Source: a virus. Taken from it: a DNA stretch of 64,000 bases. Below, piece after piece: positions 3,881 through 47,001 of the stretch. The position numbers were made by a program, and so were the translations under genes. The notes below the pieces were generated by a model that saw nothing but the letters and a program-made list of their open reading frames with translations, was not told where the DNA came from and ran no database searches. Where the stretch lies: positions 30,693-94,692 of IMG/VR virus record IMGVR_UViG_3300023197_000086; one strand, 5' to 3'. How positions within the stretch are numbered: position 1 is the first letter of the stretch; each line of letters starts with the position of its first letter.

Positions 3881-4685
3881 CTGGCCTTCGATCCCCGAAC
3901 TGTCCGACACTCCGAACGGAAACGGACTACGGATGGCGCTCAAGCGGGACGGCAGCTTCGTCCAGCTCACTCGAGACTGGATCAAGGGGCGACGGATCGA
4001 CGCGGCCACCGGCGACTACATCGACTACACCGATCTGCTGGCTCCGTCATTCCCGATCGCCAACCTGCCTGAGAACACGCTGTTGGTGGGCGAGTACGTC
4101 GTTGTCGATGCCGACGGCCTCGACGACCTCCCCGCCACGGTCTCGGTGTTGAACAGCACGGAACCGCTTCGCCGCCAGCGAAGCCGGATCGTCCTCTTCG
4201 ACGCCGCCTGGATCGCCGGATACGACGTGCGGCCACGCCCCCAGCATGAGCGCATGGAGCTTGTGCGCCAAGTGGTCAACCGTTGCCCGTTGCCGGGCGT
4301 CGAGGCCGTCACGGAGATGGCTTATGACGCCGATCGCTACGACGAGATCGTCGAGGCCGGGTATGAGGGCGTGGTCGTCAAAGATCCGCACGCCCGATTC
4401 GGCAACGGCATGTGGAAGCTCAAAGGGCGGCGCGAATACACCGTTCGCCTGGGCGACTTCGAGTATGGCGAGGGGGAGATCCACGATCGTGCCGGAGCTT
4501 TCTACATGCAAATAAAGATCAACGGCCGTTGGGTTCACGCCGGCAAGGTCGGCACCGGGTTCTCCAGGCGCGAACGCAAACTGCTGATGGAGAAGGTGCC
4601 GGTCGAGGCGAAGGTCGAGGCGCTCGGCGTCAGCGAAGACGGCAAGCTGCGGCAACCGAGCTTCAAGGAGGTCATCTCATCGTGA
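3867..4685 (+). CDS. Compact ATP-dependent DNA ligase
   Basis: Motif I KRDG, motif IV-V EGVVVKDP..FGNGMWKLK, OB-fold GKVGTGFS, C-terminal LRQPSF. Confidence 0.85.
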   Translation: MTPINWPSIPELSDTPNGNGLRMALKRDGSFVQLTRDWIKGRRIDAATGDYIDYTDLLAPSFPIANLPENTLLVGEYVVVDADGLDDLPATVSVLNSTEPLRRQRSRIVLFDAAWIAGYDVRPRPQHERMELVRQVVNRCPLPGVEAVTEMAYDADRYDEIVEAGYEGVVVKDPHARFGNGMWKLKGRREYTVRLGDFEYGEGEIHDRAGAFYMQIKINGRWVHAGKVGTGFSRRERKLLMEKVPVEAKVEALGVSEDGKLRQPSFKEVISS

Positions 4686-5568: not shown

Positions 5569-5604
5569 TCAGATTGACTACCCTGTGACACGGCGTTAAT
5601 CTGA
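5569..5604 (+). promoter_or_regulatory. Sigma70-like promoter (TTGACT-17-TAATCT) overlapped by an inverted repeat (possible operator)
   Basis: -35 at 5574-5579, -10 at 5597-5602. Arms TCAGATTGAC (5569-5578) and GTTAATCTGA (5595-5604). Confidence 0.45.
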
Positions 5605-9398: not shown

Positions 9399-10052
9399 CT
9401 AGACCGCCATCGCCTCCTCGTCCATCACCAAGTCCAACACGCCCCGGTGCTCACTCTCCAAGGCCCGCCGTTGCAGCACCCGGATCGCCTCCCGCCGTAT
9501 CTGCCCCGCCCGCACACGCGACACGCCGATCTGCTCTGCAATGGCCCGATCGGGCCACTGATCGCGATCATTTAGACCGAAGCTGTGTTCGAGGACGTAG
9601 CGTTGACGCGCCGGCATGAAGCGGAGCTGACGCTGGACCCATTCGATCCCGAGGTCTCGCAGCACATCCGTTTCCGGCTCATCCGGCGACGGGGCCACCG
9701 TGTTCGCCCAATCGTCGCCAGTCTCTTGCTCTTGTGATGGGGCATCGAGCGAGACGGTGCCGACGACCTCCGTGTTGAACTTGTGAATGACCTTGAGGGC
9801 ATATTGGTAAGCGTGGATCGCCCACGTTTGCAGATGGATGTTTTTGCCTTGGGCGAGCGAGGGAATGTAGATGTCGGGGGCGTCGGCAAGGCTTTGGGCA
9901 AGATCGCGGCTGCGCACAAATAGCTGGTGGGCCTGCCAAGCGGATAGTCCCGACGACGTGCGCGAGATACGCACGTAGCGGACAATGGCCCGCACGTCAT
10001 CCAGATGTCGATTGGCCGCTGTTGCGAAGTCGGTGATCGGCGAAGTGGGCAT
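9399..10052 (-). CDS. Phage sigma-70-like transcription factor
   Basis: Region-3-like VSLDAP..GDDWANTVA and region-4 HTH MPARQRYVLEHSFGL...DRAIAEQIGVSRVRAGQIRREAIRVLQ. Confidence 0.75.
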   Translation of the reverse strand: MPTSPITDFATAANRHLDDVRAIVRYVRISRTSSGLSAWQAHQLFVRSRDLAQSLADAPDIYIPSLAQGKNIHLQTWAIHAYQYALKVIHKFNTEVVGTVSLDAPSQEQETGDDWANTVAPSPDEPETDVLRDLGIEWVQRQLRFMPARQRYVLEHSFGLNDRDQWPDRAIAEQIGVSRVRAGQIRREAIRVLQRRALESEHRGVLDLVMDEEAMAV

Positions 10053-10773
10053 GACTCAACTCCCCAAATAGATGCGAAATCTCCTCATCCAGAAGCCTCT
10101 GTGCTTCGTCATACCGCTCTTGGGCCATCAATCTTCGGTAGGCTCGCAACTTCCGTTTGAGTTCTCGGATCTTGTCACCGTGGGGGAAGTCCGCCCGCTC
10201 GCCCCGATACCCAAGCACGGCCAACTGTTCGCCGACCTGGGAGCGACCGAGCACGGTGAGCGAAATGAGCTCCTTCGCCTCGTCGACATCCCCGTCTTCC
10301 ACCGCATCTTGCAACGGGCGCCAGAGCAGGTCGAGCGTGCCGACGCTCACGTCTTCGAGGGCGATCTGTTGTTCACCTTCCAGGCCAAGCTCGGTATTGA
10401 GACTTTCGGTCACGGTGCGGAGGGTGTCGTCGCGGATGAGGTCGACAAGGCGCTCGCCCAGACGGAGGGATGTGGACCGGGCGCCGGTGTGACGACTGAC
10501 AAGGCGCTTATACTCTTGCCAATCGTCAATGCCGAGCCGTTGCGGTGCCCGGACTCGCTTGGCCTCATCAAGGAGGATGCCGACGCGCTTGATTTGACCC
10601 CGCCCCTGCCAACGGCTCGGCGTGCGCGTCAGCGCGTAGAGCCGCATTGCGTAGTCGTCCGTGTCACGACACTTCTGCCACAAATCCTCCAGCGCCTCAA
10701 GCGTGTCGGATACCGTGGCATCCTGTAGATGGGGAAGATCAGCCGGCCCTACACCGCCGTGTCGCGCTTCCAT
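9997..10773 (-). CDS. Hypothetical protein
   Basis: Long helical ORF with GAGGGG RBS. Confidence 0.65.
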   Translation of the reverse strand: MEARHGGVGPADLPHLQDATVSDTLEALEDLWQKCRDTDDYAMRLYALTRTPSRWQGRGQIKRVGILLDEAKRVRAPQRLGIDDWQEYKRLVSRHTGARSTSLRLGERLVDLIRDDTLRTVTESLNTELGLEGEQQIALEDVSVGTLDLLWRPLQDAVEDGDVDEAKELISLTVLGRSQVGEQLAVLGYRGERADFPHGDKIRELKRKLRAYRRLMAQERYDEAQRLLDEEISHLFGELSHAHFADHRLRNSGQSTSG

Positions 10774-10865
10774 AAAACTCAGCCCCTCACCCCTGCAAGG
10801 CTCCGGCTTACGCTTTATACTTTCAAGTCATCGTCAACCGTCGCAAGCTCCCCTCCGGGCCTTCG

Positions 10866-14163: not shown

Positions 14164-14910
14164 TCAGCACACCTTCCGGTTCTGCGTCCAAGCGTCGATG
14201 GCCCGCAAGAACGTGTCGTCGGTCAGCTTCTGCGCGACCCAAAGGTCGATCGCCCGCAGGAACTCGTCGTCGCTCAACAAGCAATCGCCGTCCCGGTCAA
14301 GCTGCTCCAGCCCCGTCCGCTCGGTCTCGTCACCCCCTGACGATCCGTTATCGTCGGACGTATTGATGTCAGCGTCGCTGAACACGGCGGTCCAGTACGG
14401 ATCATTACCCTGCCGATCGACGCCGATGCTGCGGGCCCAACAGCGCATCATGTTCTCCCAATGGCCGGACGACTCGCGCCATGCTGACACGACTTGCGAG
14501 GCGGTGGACTGACCACGCGCCACGTTCTCGGCCAGACGGTTCCACGCCAGATCACCGGCCCGATCCACGCGATCCGGCAGCTTCGGCTCACCTGCGCAAC
14601 GATGCCCGAAACAGCTTTGAGCCTTCATCGTCTCGTTGTGACTGGCGGCGGCGTCCGATAGCACGCGACTCGGGGTCAATCGTTGCCCCGAATCCGAGGG
14701 CCACTGTCGCCATTGGCCATCGGCAAAGCAGACGTCACTGCCCTGCCGCAGCGTGTTGATCTCGGCGATTGCCGCCTCCTCGGCATCGGTGAGATAGGCC
14801 GCACCATCGTCGACAACGCCGCTCGGTCCATCGAGCAGCGGCGCGCAACCGGTCGTTACCGCGAACAGGATGGCGAGGGCTCCTATCGCCCCCGCAATGC
14901 GGAGTGTCAT
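14164..14910 (-). CDS. Lipoprotein with CAP (SCP) domain and C-terminal EF-hand-like repeat
   Basis: Lipobox VTTG|C; CAP motifs LSDAAASHNETM..FGH, AENVARG, VVSAWRESSGHWENM; C-terminal LDRDGDCLLSDDEFLRAIDLW / TDDTFLRAIDAW. Confidence 0.85.
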   Translation of the reverse strand: MTLRIAGAIGALAILFAVTTGCAPLLDGPSGVVDDGAAYLTDAEEAAIAEINTLRQGSDVCFADGQWRQWPSDSGQRLTPSRVLSDAAASHNETMKAQSCFGHRCAGEPKLPDRVDRAGDLAWNRLAENVARGQSTASQVVSAWRESSGHWENMMRCWARSIGVDRQGNDPYWTAVFSDADINTSDDNGSSGGDETERTGLEQLDRDGDCLLSDDEFLRAIDLWVAQKLTDDTFLRAIDAWTQNRKVC

Positions 14911-14931
14911 GCTCAGCCCCTCCTCTGCAGG

Positions 14932-17042: not shown

Positions 17043-17604
17043 GTCGCCCCTCCTCAAGCTGTTTCAACGCGCGCTCCTTCTGAGCGGCTACGCGCTCGCG
17101 ATCCGCCTCGCACTCGTCACACCGACACTCGGGATCGTGGTCGAGGCTCCGCTCGTCCGACTTGCTATCGCCGTTCGTGACTTCGCCCTCGGGCAAATAG
17201 GGGGTCAGGTTCTCGGCGATAGGGGCCATCTGCCCGTCGCGCCAGCCGTCCGGCTCGCCCTCGCCCGCCAGTTGGCGATCCAGCTGATCCTGCTCGCGCT
17301 CACGCTTGCGGGCATGGCGGCGATCCTCGAGGTACTGCGTCTTCGTGGTGCCCATGATCTCGTAGGCTTCGGAGCGGACCTCGCCGGGCGTCGGCATCCC
17401 CGGATACGCTTGGTGGGCCAGGGCCTGCCGCCCCGCCTGGAGGATCACGTCGCTCGACAGATCCCCGAGCAGGTCCGTCCAGGACTCGATCATGCCCTGC
17501 AACGCCTCCTCCTCGTTCGAACCCAGCTTCTCGCGCAGATTGGGAAACGTGCGGAACCATTGATAGAGAAACGTCTTCACCGCGCTGGCGACCTCGTTAG
17601 ACAT
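17020..17604 (-). CDS. Replicative helicase loader/inhibitor-like protein
   Basis: Directly follows the initiator; W.DLLGD..SDVILQA..ALAH..YPGMPTPGEVR pattern. Confidence 0.6.
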   Translation of the reverse strand: MSNEVASAVKTFLYQWFRTFPNLREKLGSNEEEALQGMIESWTDLLGDLSSDVILQAGRQALAHQAYPGMPTPGEVRSEAYEIMGTTKTQYLEDRRHARKREREQDQLDRQLAGEGEPDGWRDGQMAPIAENLTPYLPEGEVTNGDSKSDERSLDHDPECRCDECEADRERVAAQKERALKQLEEGRHGEPVAN

Positions 17605-18655
17605 CGACGATCCCCTCCTGTCCATTCTCCTGGGGAAGCCCGAACAGTTCGTCCAGGGATTTGCCCTGGCTGCCCTCCGTCTTGACGAAGCCGACGAAGT
17701 TTCCGTCGGAATCTAGATATTCGAGCCAACCATCGGCATTGAGCCACGTTTTCGGCATCTTCATCTTCTCTAGTTCGCGCCCTCGATCCTCCATGTCGAG
17801 CGCATAGGCGTGGGCACCTTGCTCAATCAGATCCGGGTCATGCCCCTGGCGAACCCTTTGACGCCAAACGTCATACGCGGCAGCTTTGTCATCATTCCGC
17901 GGATAGTGGGACCAGAAGCGCTCGAAAGCCTCCGGATAGCTGTAGTGGGGGCCCTTCATCGGCAGCTCCGAGCGGCGCGGATATTTCTCCTCCGACGGTC
18001 TGGCGTCGGCATCCACGTCCTCGATCAGCTCTGCCGTCTGCCCTTGCGGATTGTCGCCGTTCGGGGCCGGGTCCGCCGGGGTCGAAGACCCCACGGGGTG
18101 TGTCCTTACGTCTGGATTACCTTCACCTGGATTACCTTCCGATTCGACCCCGTTGCCGGATCGGGCTGCCGACGAGGGTTTTGAGGGTGCTTCACAAGGG
18201 GGGTGGGGTGATGTGTCATCACTAGGGTGGTGATGTGTGGTCACTACCCCTGGTGATGTGTCATCACTACCCCCTAGTGATGTGTGGTCACTACCCCCAG
18301 GGCTGGCCATCCACTCGGTCGGGTTGGTGAGGACGAATTTGTTGCTGCTGTAACTGCCGTTCTCCTTGGTACGCTGCTCCACGATGATCATTCGATGGTC
18401 CTTCAGTTCCTTAACGGCGTTGATCGCCCAGCGCCGCCGCGTATCCGGTTTGTCGCTTAGCGCGCTAAAGCAGGCGTCGCCGATGTCGCGATAGCTGGGC
18501 CACGCATAGCCTGACTGCCGGTTTGTGCGGCGGCAGATATGGGCGTACACGCGGAACGCCTTCGGTGTGATGTCGTAATCGTCCAGCGCGGAATGGACAA
18601 AGAGAATGCCGAACTCGCGGCGATCCTCAATCTCAATGCCCTGTGCGCTTGACAT
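17597..18655 (-). CDS. Replication initiator (replisome organiser; N-terminal HTH, internal iterons)
   Basis: AFRVYAHICRRTN..GYAWPSYRDIG...AVKELKDHRMI...SSNKFVL; C-terminal FERFWSHYPRNDDKAAAY..W..MPKTWLN..W. Confidence 0.85.
   Translation of the reverse strand: MSSAQGIEIEDRREFGILFVHSALDDYDITPKAFRVYAHICRRTNRQSGYAWPSYRDIGDACFSALSDKPDTRRRWAINAVKELKDHRMIIVEQRTKENGSYSSNKFVLTNPTEWMASPGGSDHTSLGGSDDTSPGVVTTHHHPSDDTSPHPPCEAPSKPSSAARSGNGVESEGNPGEGNPDVRTHPVGSSTPADPAPNGDNPQGQTAELIEDVDADARPSEEKYPRRSELPMKGPHYSYPEAFERFWSHYPRNDDKAAAYDVWRQRVRQGHDPDLIEQGAHAYALDMEDRGRELEKMKMPKTWLNADGWLEYLDSDGNFVGFVKTEGSQGKSLDELFGLPQENGQEGIVDV
18207..18293. repeat. Four 18-bp iterons inside the initiator gene (probable replication origin)
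   Basis: RGTGATGTGT(CA/GG)TCACTA at 18207, 18229, 18252 and 18276; each is partly palindromic (GTGA...TCAC). Confidence 0.85.
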
Positions 18656-18657
18656 AC

Positions 18658-19284
18658 TCAGCCCCTCCTCTTTATGGCATATTCAACCAGTAATTCGATT
18701 AAAGGTATCACCTGAGTATCATTGTTGTTAAGTTTGAACCATTCGCCATTGACGCGGTGTGGTGTCAGGAAATCATGGATATATTTTTCGGCCTGATAGA
18801 TATTCGATGATTTCCAGCTGTGGGCAATATCAATGGGCGTAGGCTGTGACTTAGATATTTGCGCGATCCGATTTGAGGGGAAGTCCTTGGTTACGCCTAC
18901 CTTATATAAACCCAGTGCGGAATTGCCACAGACATAGATATGGCCATCGTGTCTGTTATTATCACGCTGGTTTGAAGTATGCTGGCTCATTCCGAGGCGG
19001 TAGTTGAGAAATGCCCGGTTGAGCCCATACAACCTGCGATTGTCGAACGAATCAGAAACGATGTTCCCTTCTAGGACAAACCCGACCTCCACAAGTGGAG
19101 CGAGTTTGCGGCGAAGAGAACGTTGATCCATAATGCCGAGAAGCGAAGCCTGGAGCTGTTTCAGGTCGACGAATGCTCCTTCTCCCCACTGGTCAAGCCC
19201 GTCTAGGATTGCAGCCTGTAACCAATCACCAGTGATTCGTACAAGCTCCTCTCGGATGTAAACACGGCCAAGCTCTTGTGCCAT
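18658..19284 (-). CDS. wHTH replication-protein-like N-terminus fused to GIY-YIG (T5orf172-like) domain
   Basis: IREELVRITGDWLQAAIL..RSLRRKLAPLVEVGF; GHIYVCG..LYKVGVTK..NRI..AEKYIHDFL..RVNGEWFKL. RBS supports a start at 19284. AT-rich. Confidence 0.75.
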   Translation of the reverse strand: MAQELGRVYIREELVRITGDWLQAAILDGLDQWGEGAFVDLKQLQASLLGIMDQRSLRRKLAPLVEVGFVLEGNIVSDSFDNRRLYGLNRAFLNYRLGMSQHTSNQRDNNRHDGHIYVCGNSALGLYKVGVTKDFPSNRIAQISKSQPTPIDIAHSWKSSNIYQAEKYIHDFLTPHRVNGEWFKLNNNDTQVIPLIELLVEYAIKRRG

Positions 19285-19286
19285 AC

Positions 19287-19481
19287 TCAGCCCCTCCAAT
19301 CCAGCAGGATGGAAATGTGCCGCACTTGCCCATAGGTGGGAGATGTGATACCATGCAGGCATCCCATCGACATGGAATCATCGTCCTTTCTTTTGGCGAG
19401 GTCGGCGGCCACCGGCCTCGCCAAAGTTGCTTCCCGACGCTCTGTGCGCGCCGATATAATTTCCGTCCTCAGCCCCTGCAT
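19287..19481 (-). CDS. Small 64-aa ORF translationally coupled to the GIY-YIG gene
   Basis: AAGGAG RBS; stop 2 nt before the next ATG. Confidence 0.5.
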   Translation of the reverse strand: MQGLRTEIISARTERREATLARPVAADLAKRKDDDSMSMGCLHGITSPTYGQVRHISILLDWRG

Positions 19482-19566
19482 ACTGCGCTCCTTTTAAGCG
19501 GCCCTATCTGCCGCTGTTATGTTCTCATACCATTAGTTCCTAGCAAATGCTAATCGCCGGTCCTCC

Positions 19567-19595
19567 TTGACGACTGAGAGATGCTGTGGTAGGCT
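19567..19595 (+). promoter_or_regulatory. Sigma70-like promoter (TTGACG-17-TAGGCT) pointing antisense to the early operon
   Basis: -35 at 19567-19572, -10 at 19590-19595, TGTG upstream of the -10. Confidence 0.6.
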
Positions 19596-19600
19596 GCCTA

Positions 19601-19703
19601 CATAGCAGCGGGGCTCCCGCCGCTATGTGGCGAGCCCCATGAGACTCAGCCCCTCATACTGCTATGACTCGGCCTCGGCTCCTATCGCCGGGGCCGTTTC
19701 CTT
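19601..19703 (+). ncRNA. Candidate ~100-nt three-way-junction antisense sRNA with intrinsic terminator
   Basis: Closing stem CATAGCAG/CTGCTATG; hairpin GGGGCTC/GAGCCCC; hairpin ATGAG-ACTCAGCCC-CTCAT; terminator CGGCCTCGGC/GCCGGGGCCG plus TTTCCTT. Confidence 0.65.
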
Positions 19704-19725
19704 ATGCCGCATGATGTCTCCCACC

Positions 19726-20016
19726 CTAGTTGGTACTGATTGAGTCAATATCCGTCAACGTCTCCCGGTTCATCAGCGTTTGCAGCGACGACTGCACTTG
19801 GCTTTTCAAATATTGTGCGACGGCTTGGGCCGTCTCGTCCTGGTCGCGGCCCGTCACGCGCATGCCGCGGATGTGGGGCGAGGTAGCGACCCATTCCTGA
19901 TTCTCATCGTCCCAGGCAGCAAAGCAAGGGACTTGGATCGTGACGTTGAGTGGGTGATCCGGATAGTCCGGGTGCTCGAGGCTGAGGTCGAACTCAGGAT
20001 TGAATTGGTGACTCAC
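19726..20016 (-). CDS. HicB-like antitoxin-fold protein (no HicA partner seen)
   Basis: AWDDENQEWVATSPHIRGMRVTGRDQDETAQAV matches the HicB/DUF1902 N-terminal pattern. Confidence 0.6.
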   Translation of the reverse strand: MSHQFNPEFDLSLEHPDYPDHPLNVTIQVPCFAAWDDENQEWVATSPHIRGMRVTGRDQDETAQAVAQYLKSQVQSSLQTLMNRETLTDIDSISTN

Positions 20017-20334: not shown

Positions 20335-20363
20335 ATCGTAACTTTCCGCCTCCCGGCTGTCAA
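20335..20363 (-). promoter_or_regulatory. Leftward promoter TTGACA-17-TACGAT
   Basis: Near-consensus; only 8 nt between the -10 and the ATG at 20326. Confidence 0.75.
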
Positions 20364-20385: not shown

Positions 20386-20414
20386 TTGACAATCTCTGTA
20401 AGACCGTGTACCCT
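20386..20414 (+). promoter_or_regulatory. Rightward promoter TTGACA-17-TACCCT
   Basis: Back-to-back with the leftward promoter; 9 nt between the -10 and the ATG at 20424. Confidence 0.65.
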
Positions 20415-23406: not shown

Positions 23407-23435
23407 TTGACAAGCGGAGTTACCTGCAATACACT
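23407..23435 (+). promoter_or_regulatory. Sigma70-like promoter TTGACA-17-TACACT
   Basis: Near-consensus, upstream of 23507. Confidence 0.7.
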
Positions 23436-24300: not shown

Positions 24301-24406
24301 CCTTAACTTACATATCTATCACTTCCGTTATGCGTAAGACAAAGAGACCTCCCTCCGCGTCTGCCTGAGCAAACACGAAGGGAGGCTACCGGGTAAGGGT
24401 ATGGGG

Positions 24407-24769
24407 TTACGCGATCAGTTCGTCGATGGCGGCCGGGACAGCGTGGCTAAGGATGAGGCTCTCGATCTGGCTTTCGAACGGCTCGGGCACCCACGGGATG
24501 TCGGGGTCGATCTCCTCGTAGAGATCCTGGACGGTGATGATGACCGCTTCGCGTCGCTGTTCCGGCGTGAGGTCTTGGACCTGCTGGACGGCCCGGGTCA
24601 AGTCTAACCCGGCTCTGAAGACGAAGCCGAGCAGCGCTGTGACATCGAAGCCCTCGCTGCGGAAGGCGTCCTCGATGGTCGCCAGCCGATCCCGAAGCGA
24701 GTCGATGGTCGACTCGACGCGCTCCTGAATCTGCTGGACGTCAGAGCTCTCCATCGTCATCGGTTCCAT
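24407..24769 (-). CDS. Hypothetical protein (end of late operon; possibly lysis-related)
   Basis: 120-aa helical ORF; position only. Confidence 0.55.
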   Translation of the reverse strand: MEPMTMESSDVQQIQERVESTIDSLRDRLATIEDAFRSEGFDVTALLGFVFRAGLDLTRAVQQVQDLTPEQRREAVIITVQDLYEEIDPDIPWVPEPFESQIESLILSHAVPAAIDELIA

Positions 24770-39778: not shown

Positions 39779-40164
39779 TAGTATCCCTCAAAGTAGCTCA
39801 TGACGGGTTGATTGATGTCGAGGCCCTGCTCCGTCCGGCTCCACACCTGATAGGAGAATGTCCGATAGCTCCACGCCATCCGGAGCACGCGGGTCGAGAC
39901 CGTCAGCGACGGCTTCGCGTTGGTCCGGTTGATCCCGTAGGGCAGACTCAATTGGCGCGTGGCCTTCTGCGTCACCTCGTACTGCACGGTGAGCTGGCCG
40001 ACGTTGATGCTGTAACTGACCGCCAGCGATGTCCGGTTGAGTTCCAGCAGCTCCGCTCGCCACTGGCGGCCCGAGAGGCCGAGCCCGTGAAACAGCAGCG
40101 TGTTGCGAAATTCCGTGCCGGCCTTCCAGGTCTGACCGTTCAGCGACGGCGGGATGAAGATCAT
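39778..40164 (-). CDS. Hypothetical virion protein
   Basis: Operon packing. Confidence 0.55.
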   Translation of the reverse strand: MIFIPPSLNGQTWKAGTEFRNTLLFHGLGLSGRQWRAELLELNRTSLAVSYSINVGQLTVQYEVTQKATRQLSLPYGINRTNAKPSLTVSTRVLRMAWSYRTFSYQVWSRTEQGLDINQPVMSYFEGY

Positions 40165-46554: not shown

Positions 46555-46983
46555 TCAGGCTTGTAAGCCGTCCGGGAATGGCACGTCGAACTGCTCCTCC
46601 AGCAACAGGCCGTTCACCAGCTCGGCCTCGATGCGCACGGACCAGATGCGATTCTGCCGGTCCACCGTGATGTCGACCGGCGAGATCAAGCGGTCGACAC
46701 GCGGATCCTTCATCACTTCCCGAGCCGCAATCGCCTTAAACAGGTTCTCGTCGGCCGGCTGGTTGTCGCCGCGCAACGTCTGCCAATAAGGGATGCCGTG
46801 CGTGACGTTCCAGACCATCGACCCGCGCCACAGCATGAGGCGGCGATGGGCTGCTTGCGCTACCGTCTCCGCGTTCTCAACGACCTTCAGCCGTCGGGTG
46901 GCCGGATTGAACTCCCAGTCGAGGAAGTCATGCCCGATCTGTTGATGCTTGAACGTGCTGGTGCCAATGTACGGGTTTGCCAT
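46555..46983 (-). CDS. Baseplate wedge/sheath initiator (gp25/W-like)
   Basis: LKVVENAETVAQAAHRRLMLWRGSM.WN..HGIPY. Confidence 0.7.
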   Translation of the reverse strand: MANPYIGTSTFKHQQIGHDFLDWEFNPATRRLKVVENAETVAQAAHRRLMLWRGSMVWNVTHGIPYWQTLRGDNQPADENLFKAIAAREVMKDPRVDRLISPVDITVDRQNRIWSVRIEAELVNGLLLEEQFDVPFPDGLQA

Positions 46984-47001
46984 GGACTCAGCCCCTTTGG
47001 A

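What the first reader, a model, noticed from the sequence alone, without database searches (positions are those of the whole stretch)
19567..19703. Candidate multi-target antisense sRNA that would silence the replication operon (P1 C4 / P4 CI-like logic)
Seen: a sigma70 promoter (19567-19595), a tight three-way junction (19601-19666) and an intrinsic terminator (19670-19703), all on the plus strand, opposite the early leftward mRNA. The second hairpin displays ACUCAGCCC in its loop. The segment 19643-19662 is complementary to the start region of the next three genes in a row: 18 of 19 nt over the ATG of the 64-aa ORF, and 12 nt at the RBSs of both the GIY-YIG gene and the initiator. It also matches the starts at 10773, 14910 and 46983. 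Established: P1/P7 C4 and P4 CI are structured RNAs that maintain immunity by pairing with repeated targets upstream of small icd/kil-type ORFs. Inference: an RNA-based lysogeny or copy-number switch with a seed hitting early and late genes, possibly a new family. Alternative: the mirror fold on the minus strand presents an RBS before a 5-codon ORF (MGLAT, 19640-19623) and acts as an attenuator or decoy.
Basis: partly seen in the sequence, partly recalled or inferred. Interest (0 to 1): 0.85.

Follow-up and report, generated by a model that had tools for sequence, protein, structure and literature searches.

The report
Antisense small RNA before phage replication gene
An uncultured 111-kb phage very likely encodes a ~100-nt antisense RNA just upstream of its replication-initiator gene, and its exposed loop is the exact complement of a ribosome-binding-site motif shared by about a dozen of the phage's genes, so it is a candidate RNA partner for such "start-associated" motifs, whose function is still unknown.

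Summary
Plus-strand TTGACG-17-TAGGCT (19567-19595), a structured core (19601-19666) and a hairpin with U-tract (19670-19706) are all present. The 9-nt loop ACUCAGCCC is complementary to AGGGGCTGAG.

What tools add:
- AGGGGCTGAG is a genome-wide start-associated motif: 13 exact copies against 0.23 expected, all in gene orientation. Ten precede ORFs of 60 aa or more.
- The promoter belongs to a real phage promoter class, TTGACN-17-TANNNT: 11 copies against 0.7 expected. Five sit 6-10 nt before an ATG, giving leaderless mRNAs.
- The unit is conserved in the only relative found, including both promoter hexamers, the U-tract and a compensatory stem change.
- The 5-codon ORF is not conserved, and the 64-aa ORF looks non-coding.
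- Four 23-nt iterons lie inside the O-like initiator gene, so the spacer is not the origin.
- There is no Rfam match (C4 included), no integrase or ParB, and no public RNA data.

Verdict: an antisense sRNA gene is likely (about 0.7). In position it resembles lambda pO-oop-tO or a plasmid countertranscript. Trans action on all motif-bearing RBSs is plausible but untested (about 0.3). The lysogeny/C4-family reading is unsupported.

The parts
19567..19595 (+). Promoter of the candidate sRNA: TTGACG, 17 nt, TAGGCT. The expected start is A19600 or A19602.
   Evidence: One of 11 genome copies of TTGACN-17-TANNNT, against 0.72 expected; other spacers from 13 to 22 nt give 0-2 copies. Five class members sit 6-10 nt before an ATG. 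The homologue TTGACT-17-TAGGGT is the only class match in L009 and L010.
19601..19666 (+). Structured core. P1 is 19601-08/19659-66, P2 is 19610-38, P3 is 19639-43/19653-57. An alternative fold replaces P1/P2 with a long 5' hairpin but keeps P3.
   Evidence: MFE -55.8 kcal/mol, z = -4.9. All pairs are kept on the + strand in both haplotypes. The alternative three-hairpin consensus comes from RNAalifold.
19644..19655 (+). Anti-motif segment GACUCAGCCCCU. Nine of its bases (19644-19652) form the P3 loop.
   Evidence: Loop bases are unpaired with probability 0.99-1.0. It is the exact complement of AGGGGCUGAGUC. Duplex energies are -24 to -28 kcal/mol with RBS targets.
19670..19706 (+). Intrinsic terminator: a 10-bp stem (9 G-C), a 7-nt loop and a U-rich tail.
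   Evidence: Found by the scan. It has the second-longest stem listed anywhere in window 1-60000; only the 18-pair hairpin at 24386-24347 (-) is longer. It carries a compensatory C-G to U-A change, and the relative has a better U-tract, UUUCUUUUCC.
19466..19486 (-). Second pairing site on the leftward mRNA, GCAGUAUG(C)AGGGGCUGAG. It covers the AUG of the 64-aa ORF.
   Evidence: 18 identical positions plus a 1-nt bulge relative to 19645-19662. The GUAUG-N-motif arrangement is kept in L009 and L010. Duplex energy is -34.8 kcal/mol in the window and -29.6 in L009.
19287..19481 (-). The 64-aa ORF. It is probably non-coding, or at most a translated leader.
   Evidence: Substitutions by codon position are 9/12/14, and GC at codon position 2 is 0.52 against 0.36-0.47 in real genes. 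L009 has a frameshift and the RBS is lost to a 9-nt deletion in L009 and L010. It has no homologues.
19286..19295 (-). Start-associated motif at the RBS of the T5orf172 nuclease gene (18658-19284).
18657..18666 (-). Start-associated motif at the RBS of the replication initiator gene (17597-18655).
   Evidence: The initiator matches phrog_270 and O-like families.
14912..14921 (-). Start-associated motif before the CAP-domain gene (14164-14910).
10778..10787 (-). Start-associated motif before the 258-aa gene (9997-10773).
46987..46996 (-). Start-associated motif before the baseplate-wedge (gp25-like) gene (46555-46983).
20335..20363 (-). Early leftward promoter TTGACA-17-TACGAT. It gives a leaderless 110-aa gene, and its transcript runs through the spacer into the replication genes.
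18206..18297 (.). Four tandem 23-nt iterons inside the initiator gene, the likely origin of replication.
19497..19515 (.). A 6-bp hairpin just upstream of the second pairing site. It looks like a terminator on the + strand, with a weak tail.
   Evidence: Found. It carries a compensatory G-C to A-U change in L009 and L010.

Best explanation
Window 19567-19706 (+) is a self-contained gene for a small antisense RNA of about 100-105 nt. Transcription starts at about 19600-19602 from a promoter of the phage's own class and stops at the 19670-19696 hairpin with its U-tract.

The RNA is made opposite the 244-nt spacer of the early leftward operon, which is driven by the promoter at 20363. It lies directly upstream of the replication module: a leader region, an inserted T5orf172 nuclease gene, and a lambda-O-like initiator that carries its iterons internally.

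Whichever of its two competing folds forms, one hairpin exposes the 9-nt loop ACUCAGCCC. That loop is the complement of the phage's start-associated RBS motif.

Inferred mechanism: loop-initiated base pairing with the leftward mRNA at three kinds of site.
- The fully complementary spacer.
- A conserved 15-18-nt site 177 nt downstream, over the AUG of the leader ORF.
- The RBS of the initiator (11-12 nt).

The expected result is lower expression of the replication genes. This resembles lambda OOP or plasmid countertranscripts (CopA, Inc RNA). The same loop could reach every other motif-bearing RBS.

What is shown: the sequence signals, their enrichment, conservation and pairing potential. What is inferred: transcription itself, the direction of regulation, and any action in trans.
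For: Promoter:
- TTGACN-17-TANNNT occurs 11 times against 0.72 expected, and spacing is almost exclusively 17 nt.
- Five members are placed for leaderless ATGs, and most others precede genes.
- Both hexamers are conserved in L009 and L010 while the spacer varies.

Terminator:
- It has the second-longest stem of any + or - strand terminator-like hairpin in window 1-60000.
- The U-tract lies only on the + strand and is conserved or improved in the relative.
- One compensatory pair change occurs in the stem.

Structure:
- z = -4.9.
- In the three-way-junction fold all 35 pairs hold on the + strand in both haplotypes. The four non-Watson-Crick positions are G.U on the + strand and C.A on the - strand.
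- The 32-nt block around the loop hairpin is invariant, against 89% mean identity.

No coding alternative:
- The mini-ORF start is lost in the relative.
- No + strand ORF follows the promoter.

Context:
- Iterons lie inside the initiator gene, so the spacer is not the origin.

Pairing potential:
- The loop is unpaired with probability at least 0.99.
- Duplex energies are -24 to -35 kcal/mol.
Against: - None of the public RNA runs listed holds the locus, so there is no expression data.
- Only two independent haplotypes exist: window/L013 and L009/L010. Covariation power is therefore minimal.
- The strand argument from G.U pairs depends on the fold. RNAalifold prefers a three-hairpin fold in which the minus strand scores better (-61.1 against -54.6 kcal/mol), and in that fold the window has one C.A mismatch on the + strand.
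- Single-sequence energies are equal on both strands, -55.8 and -55.7 kcal/mol.
- The -10 hexamer is weak by the E. coli consensus.
- The host is unknown. The 'Salinibacter' label comes from a 7.6-kb MAG contig. PMC3155529 reports no genome-wide SD signal in S. ruber, whereas these phage genes carry strong SD sequences.
- Nothing shows the sign or the target of regulation.
Confidence: 0.55

Rival explanations
1. The conserved structure acts in cis within the leftward (minus-strand) mRNA. It could be a leader element presenting a motif copy in a hairpin loop, acting as a decoy or sponge for a motif-binding factor, as a ribosome standby or attenuator element, or as a processing site. Under this reading the plus-strand promoter and terminator signals are incidental.
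For: - The spacer copy has the same orientation as all 13 motif copies.
- The minus strand folds as stably as the plus strand.
- It has the better RNAalifold consensus.
- Another structured motif copy without a real gene exists elsewhere in the genome, at genome position 4352 between tRNA-like sequences.
Against: - The only start codon served by this motif copy is lost in L009 and L010, ATG to ATA.
- There is no U-tract after any minus-strand hairpin, so no attenuator terminator.
- It does not explain the conserved -35 and -10 hexamers of an enriched promoter class, nor the conserved + strand U-tract.
Confidence: 0.2
2. It is a DNA-level element. The inverted repeats and motif copies are protein-binding sites, part of the replication origin, or recombination junctions for gene-cassette exchange, and not RNA.
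For: - The region lies next to the initiator gene.
- It contains several inverted repeats.
- The T5orf172 gene, absent in L009 and L010, sits exactly between two copies of GGAGGGGCTGAGTATG.
Against: - Four clear 23-nt iterons lie inside the initiator gene, as in lambda O.
- Stems keep pairing through compensatory and G.U changes.
- There is no iteron-like array in the spacer.
Confidence: 0.1
3. This is a P1 C4 / P4 CI-type immunity RNA that maintains lysogeny or plasmid-prophage copy number by silencing early and late genes.
For: The logic is the same: a structured RNA whose exposed bases pair with repeated RBS-overlapping sites in the same operon.
Against: - There is no C4 covariance-model match in the window or the whole genome, even at E <= 10.
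- The RNA would be antisense with its own promoter, not processed from the sense transcript.
- No integrase or ParB is present in the 87%-complete record.
- No icd/ant-like gene was recognised.
Confidence: 0.08
4. The signals are a chance co-occurrence with no function.
For: The -10 element is weak and the U-tract is interrupted.
Against: - z = -4.9.
- There are 30-nt invariant blocks.
- The promoter class is enriched about 15-fold.
- Terminator-like hairpins are otherwise depleted in the window: 8, 8 and 5 found against about 14 expected per 20 kb.
Confidence: 0.05

Closest known systems
Phage lambda pO-oop-tO (OOP antisense RNA)
   Same: A short RNA with its own promoter and intrinsic terminator. 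It is transcribed against the early operon immediately upstream of an O-type initiator gene that holds its iterons internally. It is expected to act by pairing with the early mRNA (PMC5869508).
   Different: There is no sequence or structural homology. OOP overlaps 52 bases of cII (PMC5869508), whereas this RNA would end about 20 nt before the stop codon of the upstream 96-aa ORF. OOP has no loop matching a genome-wide RBS motif.
Plasmid countertranscripts (R1 CopA/CopT, IncI/IncB Inc RNA, pT181 RNAI)
   Same: An antisense RNA encoded in the leader of the replication-initiator mRNA. Recognition would be by loop, and a leader ORF start could be the blocked site (from established knowledge of these systems).
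   Different: There is no Rfam match to any ctRNA family. The replicon is a 111-kb myovirus-like phage, not a plasmid. Leader-ORF coupling is not shown, and the ORF looks non-coding.
P1/P7 C4 and P4 CI RNAs (Rfam RF01695)
   Same: A structured RNA that masks RBS-overlapping repeats in its own operon.
   Different: The covariance model does not match. C4 is processed from the sense transcript, by established knowledge. No lysogeny module was found here.
Start-associated sequences (SAS) of Cluster K mycobacteriophages
   Same: A short asymmetric motif in 11-19 copies per genome, lying a few bases before (mostly ATG) start codons. It is in one orientation, contains an SD-like core plus conserved bases that cannot pair with 16S rRNA, and is sometimes overlapped by the upstream stop codon (PMC3203893).
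   Different: The sequence differs (AGGGGCTGAG(T) against GGGATAGGAGCCC), as does the phage lineage, and the host is probably different too. No ESAS-like 17-bp inverted repeats were sought. Here a candidate RNA carrying the complement is identifiable. For Cluster K the partner is still unknown (PMC3203893, PMC11373665, PMC12699233).

Membership tests
Rfam C4 (RF01695; P1 C4 / P4 CI) | Match to the family covariance model | tested here: not met
   No hit at the gathering threshold in the window. None at E <= 10 in 19200-19800. None at E <= 10 in the whole 111-kb genome.
Rfam C4 (RF01695; P1 C4 / P4 CI) | RNA lies on the sense strand upstream of an icd/ant-type gene and is processed from that transcript | tested here: not met
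   The candidate is on the opposite strand with its own promoter. No icd/ant-like neighbour was recognised.
Lambda OOP-type antisense RNA (functional class, no Rfam model) | Own promoter and intrinsic terminator, convergent with the early operon, next to an O-like initiator gene | tested here: met
   Promoter class. Terminator. Initiator matches phrog_270 and O-like families. Iterons lie inside the gene. All of this is computational only.
Lambda OOP-type antisense RNA (functional class, no Rfam model) | Overlaps the 3' end of the upstream regulatory gene (cII) and triggers RNase III cleavage | tested here: not met
   The U-tract ends at about 19706 and the upstream ORF stop codon is at 19726-19728. 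Cleavage cannot be tested with these tools.
Plasmid ctRNA families in Rfam (CopA, RNAI, ctRNA_pT181, ctRNA_pGA1 and others) | Match to a family covariance model | tested here: not met
   Searches list no such family.
Start-associated sequence (SAS) class | Many copies of one asymmetric motif, far above chance | tested here: met
   13 exact copies against 0.23 expected, with a simulation maximum of 3.
Start-associated sequence (SAS) class | Copies lie within a few bases of start codons and in gene orientation | tested here: met
   12 of 13 copies have ATG or TTG 1-6 nt downstream, and 10 of these precede ORFs of 60 aa or more. All follow the local gene direction.
Start-associated sequence (SAS) class | Cluster K consensus GGGATAGGAGCCC | tested here: not met
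   The motif here is AGGGGCTGAG(T). It is an analogue, not a member.

The most novel reading that the evidence does not exclude
The start-associated RBS motif of this phage is the landing pad of a dedicated phage sRNA. One ~100-nt antisense RNA, through a 9-nt loop, would bind the ribosome-binding sites of about 11 dispersed genes and co-ordinate their translation. Those genes include the replication initiator, a nuclease, a baseplate protein and a peptidase.

This would be the first identified RNA partner of an SAS-type motif. A partial parallel exists in K1-type Cluster K mycobacteriophages. There the single reverse-oriented SAS copy sits in the apical loop of a conserved, covarying hairpin on the sense strand. 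The loop does not track the SAS in Ekdilam.
Probability: 0.27. Interest if true: 0.85.

Novelty: new variant of a known kind. Interest (0 to 1): 0.6.

Why it matters
Antisense RNAs next to phage and plasmid replication genes are a known kind of control element, but this one belongs to no described family.

It also links two things that have not been connected. One is a genome-wide start-associated RBS motif. The function of such motifs has been open since 2011 (PMC3203893) and was still called unverified in 2024-2025 (PMC11373665, PMC12699233). The other is a specific, structured RNA that displays the exact complement in a loop.

That turns "what reads SAS-type motifs?" into a simple reporter experiment with compensatory mutations. 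The analysis also defines, from sequence alone, the promoter class and the leaderless-mRNA usage of an uncultured phage lineage with no relatives in the phage databases.

Tried and rejected
Searches for relatives:
- Initiator against viral contigs: none found.
- Initiator against 5.8 billion proteins: only L009, L010 and the distant L011.
- Initiator against 1.84 billion representatives: many N-terminal-domain homologues, but only two full relatives.
- The 96-aa neighbour and the 64-aa ORF: nothing new.
- Six exact DNA patterns in viral, metagenome and genome collections: only the known MAG contig plus chance 18-19-mers.
- Tail sheath against IMG/VR and cultured phages: none. blastn of the locus against phages: none.
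- L013 is identical to the window, so it adds nothing.
- L011 has no motif and no homologous leader, so loop/target co-variation could not be tested.

Expression: no public RNA run was listed.

Rejected readings:
- Origin of replication in the spacer is rejected, because the iterons are inside the initiator gene.
- The MGLAT leader peptide is rejected, because its start is not conserved.
- The 64-aa ORF as a conserved protein is rejected.
- tRNA-like element is rejected, because ARAGORN finds none.
- A second plus-strand sRNA spanning 19363-19520 was considered (TTGCCC-17-TACCAT plus the 19497-19515 hairpin). Its -35 is outside the promoter class and its U-tract is weak, so it is left as unexplained conservation.

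Method caveats:
- The G.U strand test was first read as clear plus-strand support, then downgraded because it depends on the fold.
- duplexfold on the full-length RNA gave uninformative long-loop structures, so short segments were used instead. A forced-fold energy comparison was unreliable.

Full report
WHAT THE WINDOW IS

The window is bases 30693-94692 of a 111,451-bp IMG/VR virus record, 61% G+C, estimated 87% complete. Tail sheath, baseplate hub and wedge proteins identify a myovirus-type phage. No related record was found in cultured phages or IMG/VR.

Around the finding, two promoters at 20363 (-) and 20386 (+) drive divergent operons. The leftward operon reads in this order:
- a leaderless 110-aa gene;
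- a 96-aa gene (19726-20016);
- a 244-nt spacer (19482-19725), which holds the finding;
- a 64-aa ORF;
- a T5orf172/MUG113 nuclease gene (18658-19284);
- a replication initiator (17597-18655; phrog_270, O-like, HTH_36), followed by further genes.

THE OBSERVATION

- TTGACG-17-TAGGCT lies at 19567-19595.
- The fold of 19597-19710 (+) is a three-way junction followed by a hairpin. Energy is -55.8 kcal/mol, z = -4.9, and none of 200 shuffles folds as well.
- The scan lists 19670-19696 as a 10-pair, 9-G-C stem followed by TTTCCTTATG.
- The second hairpin loop is ACUCAGCCC (19644-19652).
- The stated complementarities are correct.

THE COMPLEMENTARITY IS A GENOME-WIDE START-ASSOCIATED MOTIF

- AGGGGCTGAG occurs 7 times in the window, always on the minus strand.
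- It occurs 13 times in the genome against 0.23 expected, with a maximum of 3 in 100 simulations.
- Every copy follows the local gene direction. Twelve of 13 have ATG or TTG 1-6 nt downstream.
- Ten copies precede ORFs of 60 aa or more. These have mixed functions: initiator, T5orf172 nuclease, CAP-domain protein, papain-like peptidase, gp25-like baseplate wedge, and several unknowns. A one-mismatch variant precedes a DUF6788 gene.
- The extended consensus is (A/G)AGGGGCTGAGT(C).

This is the behaviour described for the 13-bp start-associated sequences (SAS) of Cluster K mycobacteriophages. Their function and partner, "either RNA or protein", remain unknown (PMC3203893; still open in PMC11373665 and PMC12699233).

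Three copies serve no real gene:
- the spacer copy (19654-19645);
- a copy just after the ATG of the 64-aa ORF (19477-19468);
- one outside the window, between tRNA-like sequences.

The two leader copies share an extension, GCAGTATG(C)AGGGGCTGAG.

THE ONLY RELATIVE

The initiator and the 96-aa neighbour each have a single relative, with 57-58% and 82% identity. It is a 7.6-kb contig binned as a Salinibacter sp. MAG (L009) and a near-copy from a Logan assembly (L010). L013 is identical to the window.

The whole 440-nt stretch 19287-19725 aligns at 89% mean identity, with invariant blocks of about 30 nt. In L009 and L010 it lies directly upstream of the initiator. The low-GC T5orf172 gene is absent there. 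In the window it sits between two copies of GGAGGGGCTGAGTATG.

What the relative shows:
- The start codon of the 5-codon ORF MGLAT is ATA.
- For the 64-aa ORF, substitutions fall 9/12/14 over codon positions, and amino-acid identity (about 66%) is lower than nucleotide identity (about 82%). L009 has a frameshift, and the RBS is removed by a 9-nt deletion.

I therefore treat the whole 440 nt as a non-coding leader, possibly with a translated but unconstrained ORF.

IS THE PLUS STRAND TRANSCRIBED?

The best evidence is the promoter.
- TTGACN-(17)-TANNNT occurs 11 times in the genome against 0.72 expected (maximum 3 in 60 simulations). Spacers of 13-16 and 18-22 nt give 0-2 copies each.
- Five members lie 6-10 nt before an ATG that opens an ORF of at least 110 aa, the signature of leaderless mRNAs. 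This includes both divergent early promoters. Most others precede genes with an RBS.
- The plus-strand site at 19567 is a member of the class. So is its homologue TTGACT-17-TAGGGT, the only class match in L009 and L010. Between the two haplotypes the hexamers are kept while the first spacer bases differ.
- By the leaderless examples the start should be A19600 or A19602, the foot of stem P1.
- No ORF of 60 aa or more begins within 180 nt.

Second, the terminator.
- Terminator-like hairpins are depleted in this phage: 8, 8 and 5 per 20 kb against about 14 expected.
- The 19670-19696 stem is the second longest listed, after the 18-pair hairpin that closes the late operon at 24386-24347.
- Its U-tract exists only on the plus strand and is better in the relative, UUUCUUUUCC.
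- One stem pair changes C-G to U-A.

Third, the pairing pattern.
- In the three-way-junction fold all 35 pairs hold on the plus strand in both haplotypes.
- The four non-Watson-Crick positions are G.U on the plus strand and C.A on the minus strand.
- This point is weaker than it first looked. RNAalifold prefers a fold of three consecutive hairpins, in which one window position is C.A on the plus strand. In that fold the minus-strand consensus is more stable, -61.1 against -54.6 kcal/mol. Single-sequence energies are equal, -55.8 and -55.7.
- Both folds keep the loop hairpin, and the nine loop bases are unpaired with probability at least 0.99.

No public RNA run was listed for the locus. I put the existence of the RNA at about 0.7.

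WHAT IT IS NOT

- No Rfam family matches. C4 fails in the window, in the locus at E <= 10, and in the whole genome.
- No tRNA was found in the window.
- It is not the origin. Four tandem 23-nt iterons with internal dyad symmetry lie at 18206-18297, in the linker region of the initiator gene, as in lambda O.
- No integrase or ParB domain was found in the record, so a role in lysogeny or plasmid maintenance has no support. The record is 87% complete, though.

LIKELY MECHANISM (INFERRED)

The RNA is fully complementary to the spacer of the polycistronic early mRNA. Its loop and 3' flank also match a second, conserved site 177 nt downstream that covers the AUG of the leader ORF. That match is 18 positions with a 1-nt bulge and -34.8 kcal/mol in the window, and 15-16 positions and -29.6 kcal/mol in L009. 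The loop also matches 11-12 nt of the initiator RBS in both phages, about -27 kcal/mol.

The simplest reading is a countertranscript that lowers expression of the replication module, by duplex formation and cleavage and/or by RBS masking. In position it corresponds to lambda pO-oop-tO, which sits immediately upstream of O and opposes the early transcript (PMC5869508). It also corresponds to plasmid leader countertranscripts. It differs from OOP in not overlapping the upstream coding region.

Because the loop is the exact complement of the consensus motif, about -24 kcal/mol for the 12-nt core, every motif-bearing RBS is a potential trans target. Whether the motif exists for this RNA cannot be decided here. 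The one relative has the same loop and the same motif, so co-variation is untestable.

A PARALLEL WORTH RECORDING

Pope et al. noted that K1 mycobacteriophages have one SAS copy in reverse orientation, not associated with a gene start (PMC3203893).

In Anaya that copy lies in the 385-nt gap between gp96 and gp97. On the sense strand its complement, CCUCCUAUCC, is the apical loop of a GCGCGG/CCGCGC hairpin set in a 10-bp outer stem.

The region is conserved in 138 Cluster K records. In an alignment of ten phages the hairpins are kept, with 10 of 42 pairs showing compensatory changes and many sense-strand G.U pairs.

The loop equals the anti-SAS in seven K1-like phages. In Ekdilam, however, the loop differs (CCUCCUUCCCC) while its 17 SAS copies remain canonical. 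The parallel is therefore suggestive, not a demonstrated rule. None of the three papers consulted mentions such an RNA.

VERDICT

- Observation: confirmed.
- Interpretation: partly supported. An antisense sRNA gene before the replication module is likely. Multi-target action is possible but untested. The lysogeny/C4-family part is unsupported.
- Novelty: a new variant of a known kind, namely a phage or plasmid antisense regulator of replication genes. The unusual feature is a loop matching a genome-wide start-associated motif.
- Caveat: the host is unknown and the Salinibacter label is weak. PMC3155529 reports no SD signal in S. ruber, whereas these phage genes use strong SD sequences.

Noticed in passing
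window 18206-18297: Four tandem 23-nt iterons, consensus TGGTGATGTGTnnTCACTACCCC, each with internal dyad symmetry. They lie inside the O-like initiator gene at about residues 119-150. This is a lambda-like origin within the initiator gene.
   Followed up: partly
window 20335-20363 (-), 20386-20414 (+), 23407-23435 (+), 5574-5602 (+), and 7 sites outside the window: Phage promoter class TTGACN-17-TANNNT, with 11 copies against 0.7 expected. Five copies sit 6-10 nt before an ATG, so several early genes are probably translated from leaderless mRNAs.
   Followed up: yes
window 18658-19284 (-): The T5orf172/MUG113 nuclease gene has low G+C (0.32-0.5) and is absent from the relative L009/L010. It is flanked by two copies of GGAGGGGCTGAGTATG. 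It looks like a mobile insertion, and the start-associated motif may serve as a recombination junction.
   Followed up: partly
window 19335-19400, 19392-19425: A 77-nt block with a single difference from the relative, far above the 89% average, followed by a 17-bp hairpin (19392-19425). It contains a weak promoter-like TTGCCC-17-TACCAT on the + strand. Its function is unexplained.
   Followed up: partly
window 19335-19343 and 19717-19725: Perfect 9-nt complement GGTGGGAGA / TCTCCCACC, 373 nt apart, bracketing the whole non-coding leader. Eight of nine positions are kept in the relative on either strand. It may be a long-range helix or chance.
   Followed up: partly
L026 (Mycobacterium phage Anaya JF704106) 39850-39900, and alignment A4: The single reverse-oriented SAS copy of K1 mycobacteriophages lies in the apical loop of a conserved, covarying sense-strand hairpin, in the non-coding gap before the last genes. 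It is a possible anti-SAS RNA. The loop does not match the SAS in Ekdilam, Amgine or Keshu.
   Followed up: partly
genome C1 about 9400-9602 (-) and about 3990-4118 (-), outside the window: Two further class promoters are followed by 125-155 nt without an ORF but with strong hairpins, one of them terminator-like. They are possible additional small RNA genes.
   Followed up: no
L001 1250-1640 (-) = genome C1 about 4090-4480: Two tRNA-like sequences with GGTTCGAATCC T-loops flank a start-associated motif copy. That copy sits in the loop of a CCAUG/CAUGG hairpin and precedes only a 12-codon ORF.
   Followed up: no
window 24347-24386 (-): An 18-pair hairpin with a U-rich tail just downstream of the 24407-24769 (-) ORF. 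It is probably the main intrinsic terminator of the late leftward operon, and it was used here as the yardstick for terminator quality.
   Followed up: no
L009 1114-1890 and 3113-3928: The related contig carries Ku and an ATP-dependent DNA ligase (an NHEJ pair) a few kb upstream of the conserved leader.
   Followed up: no
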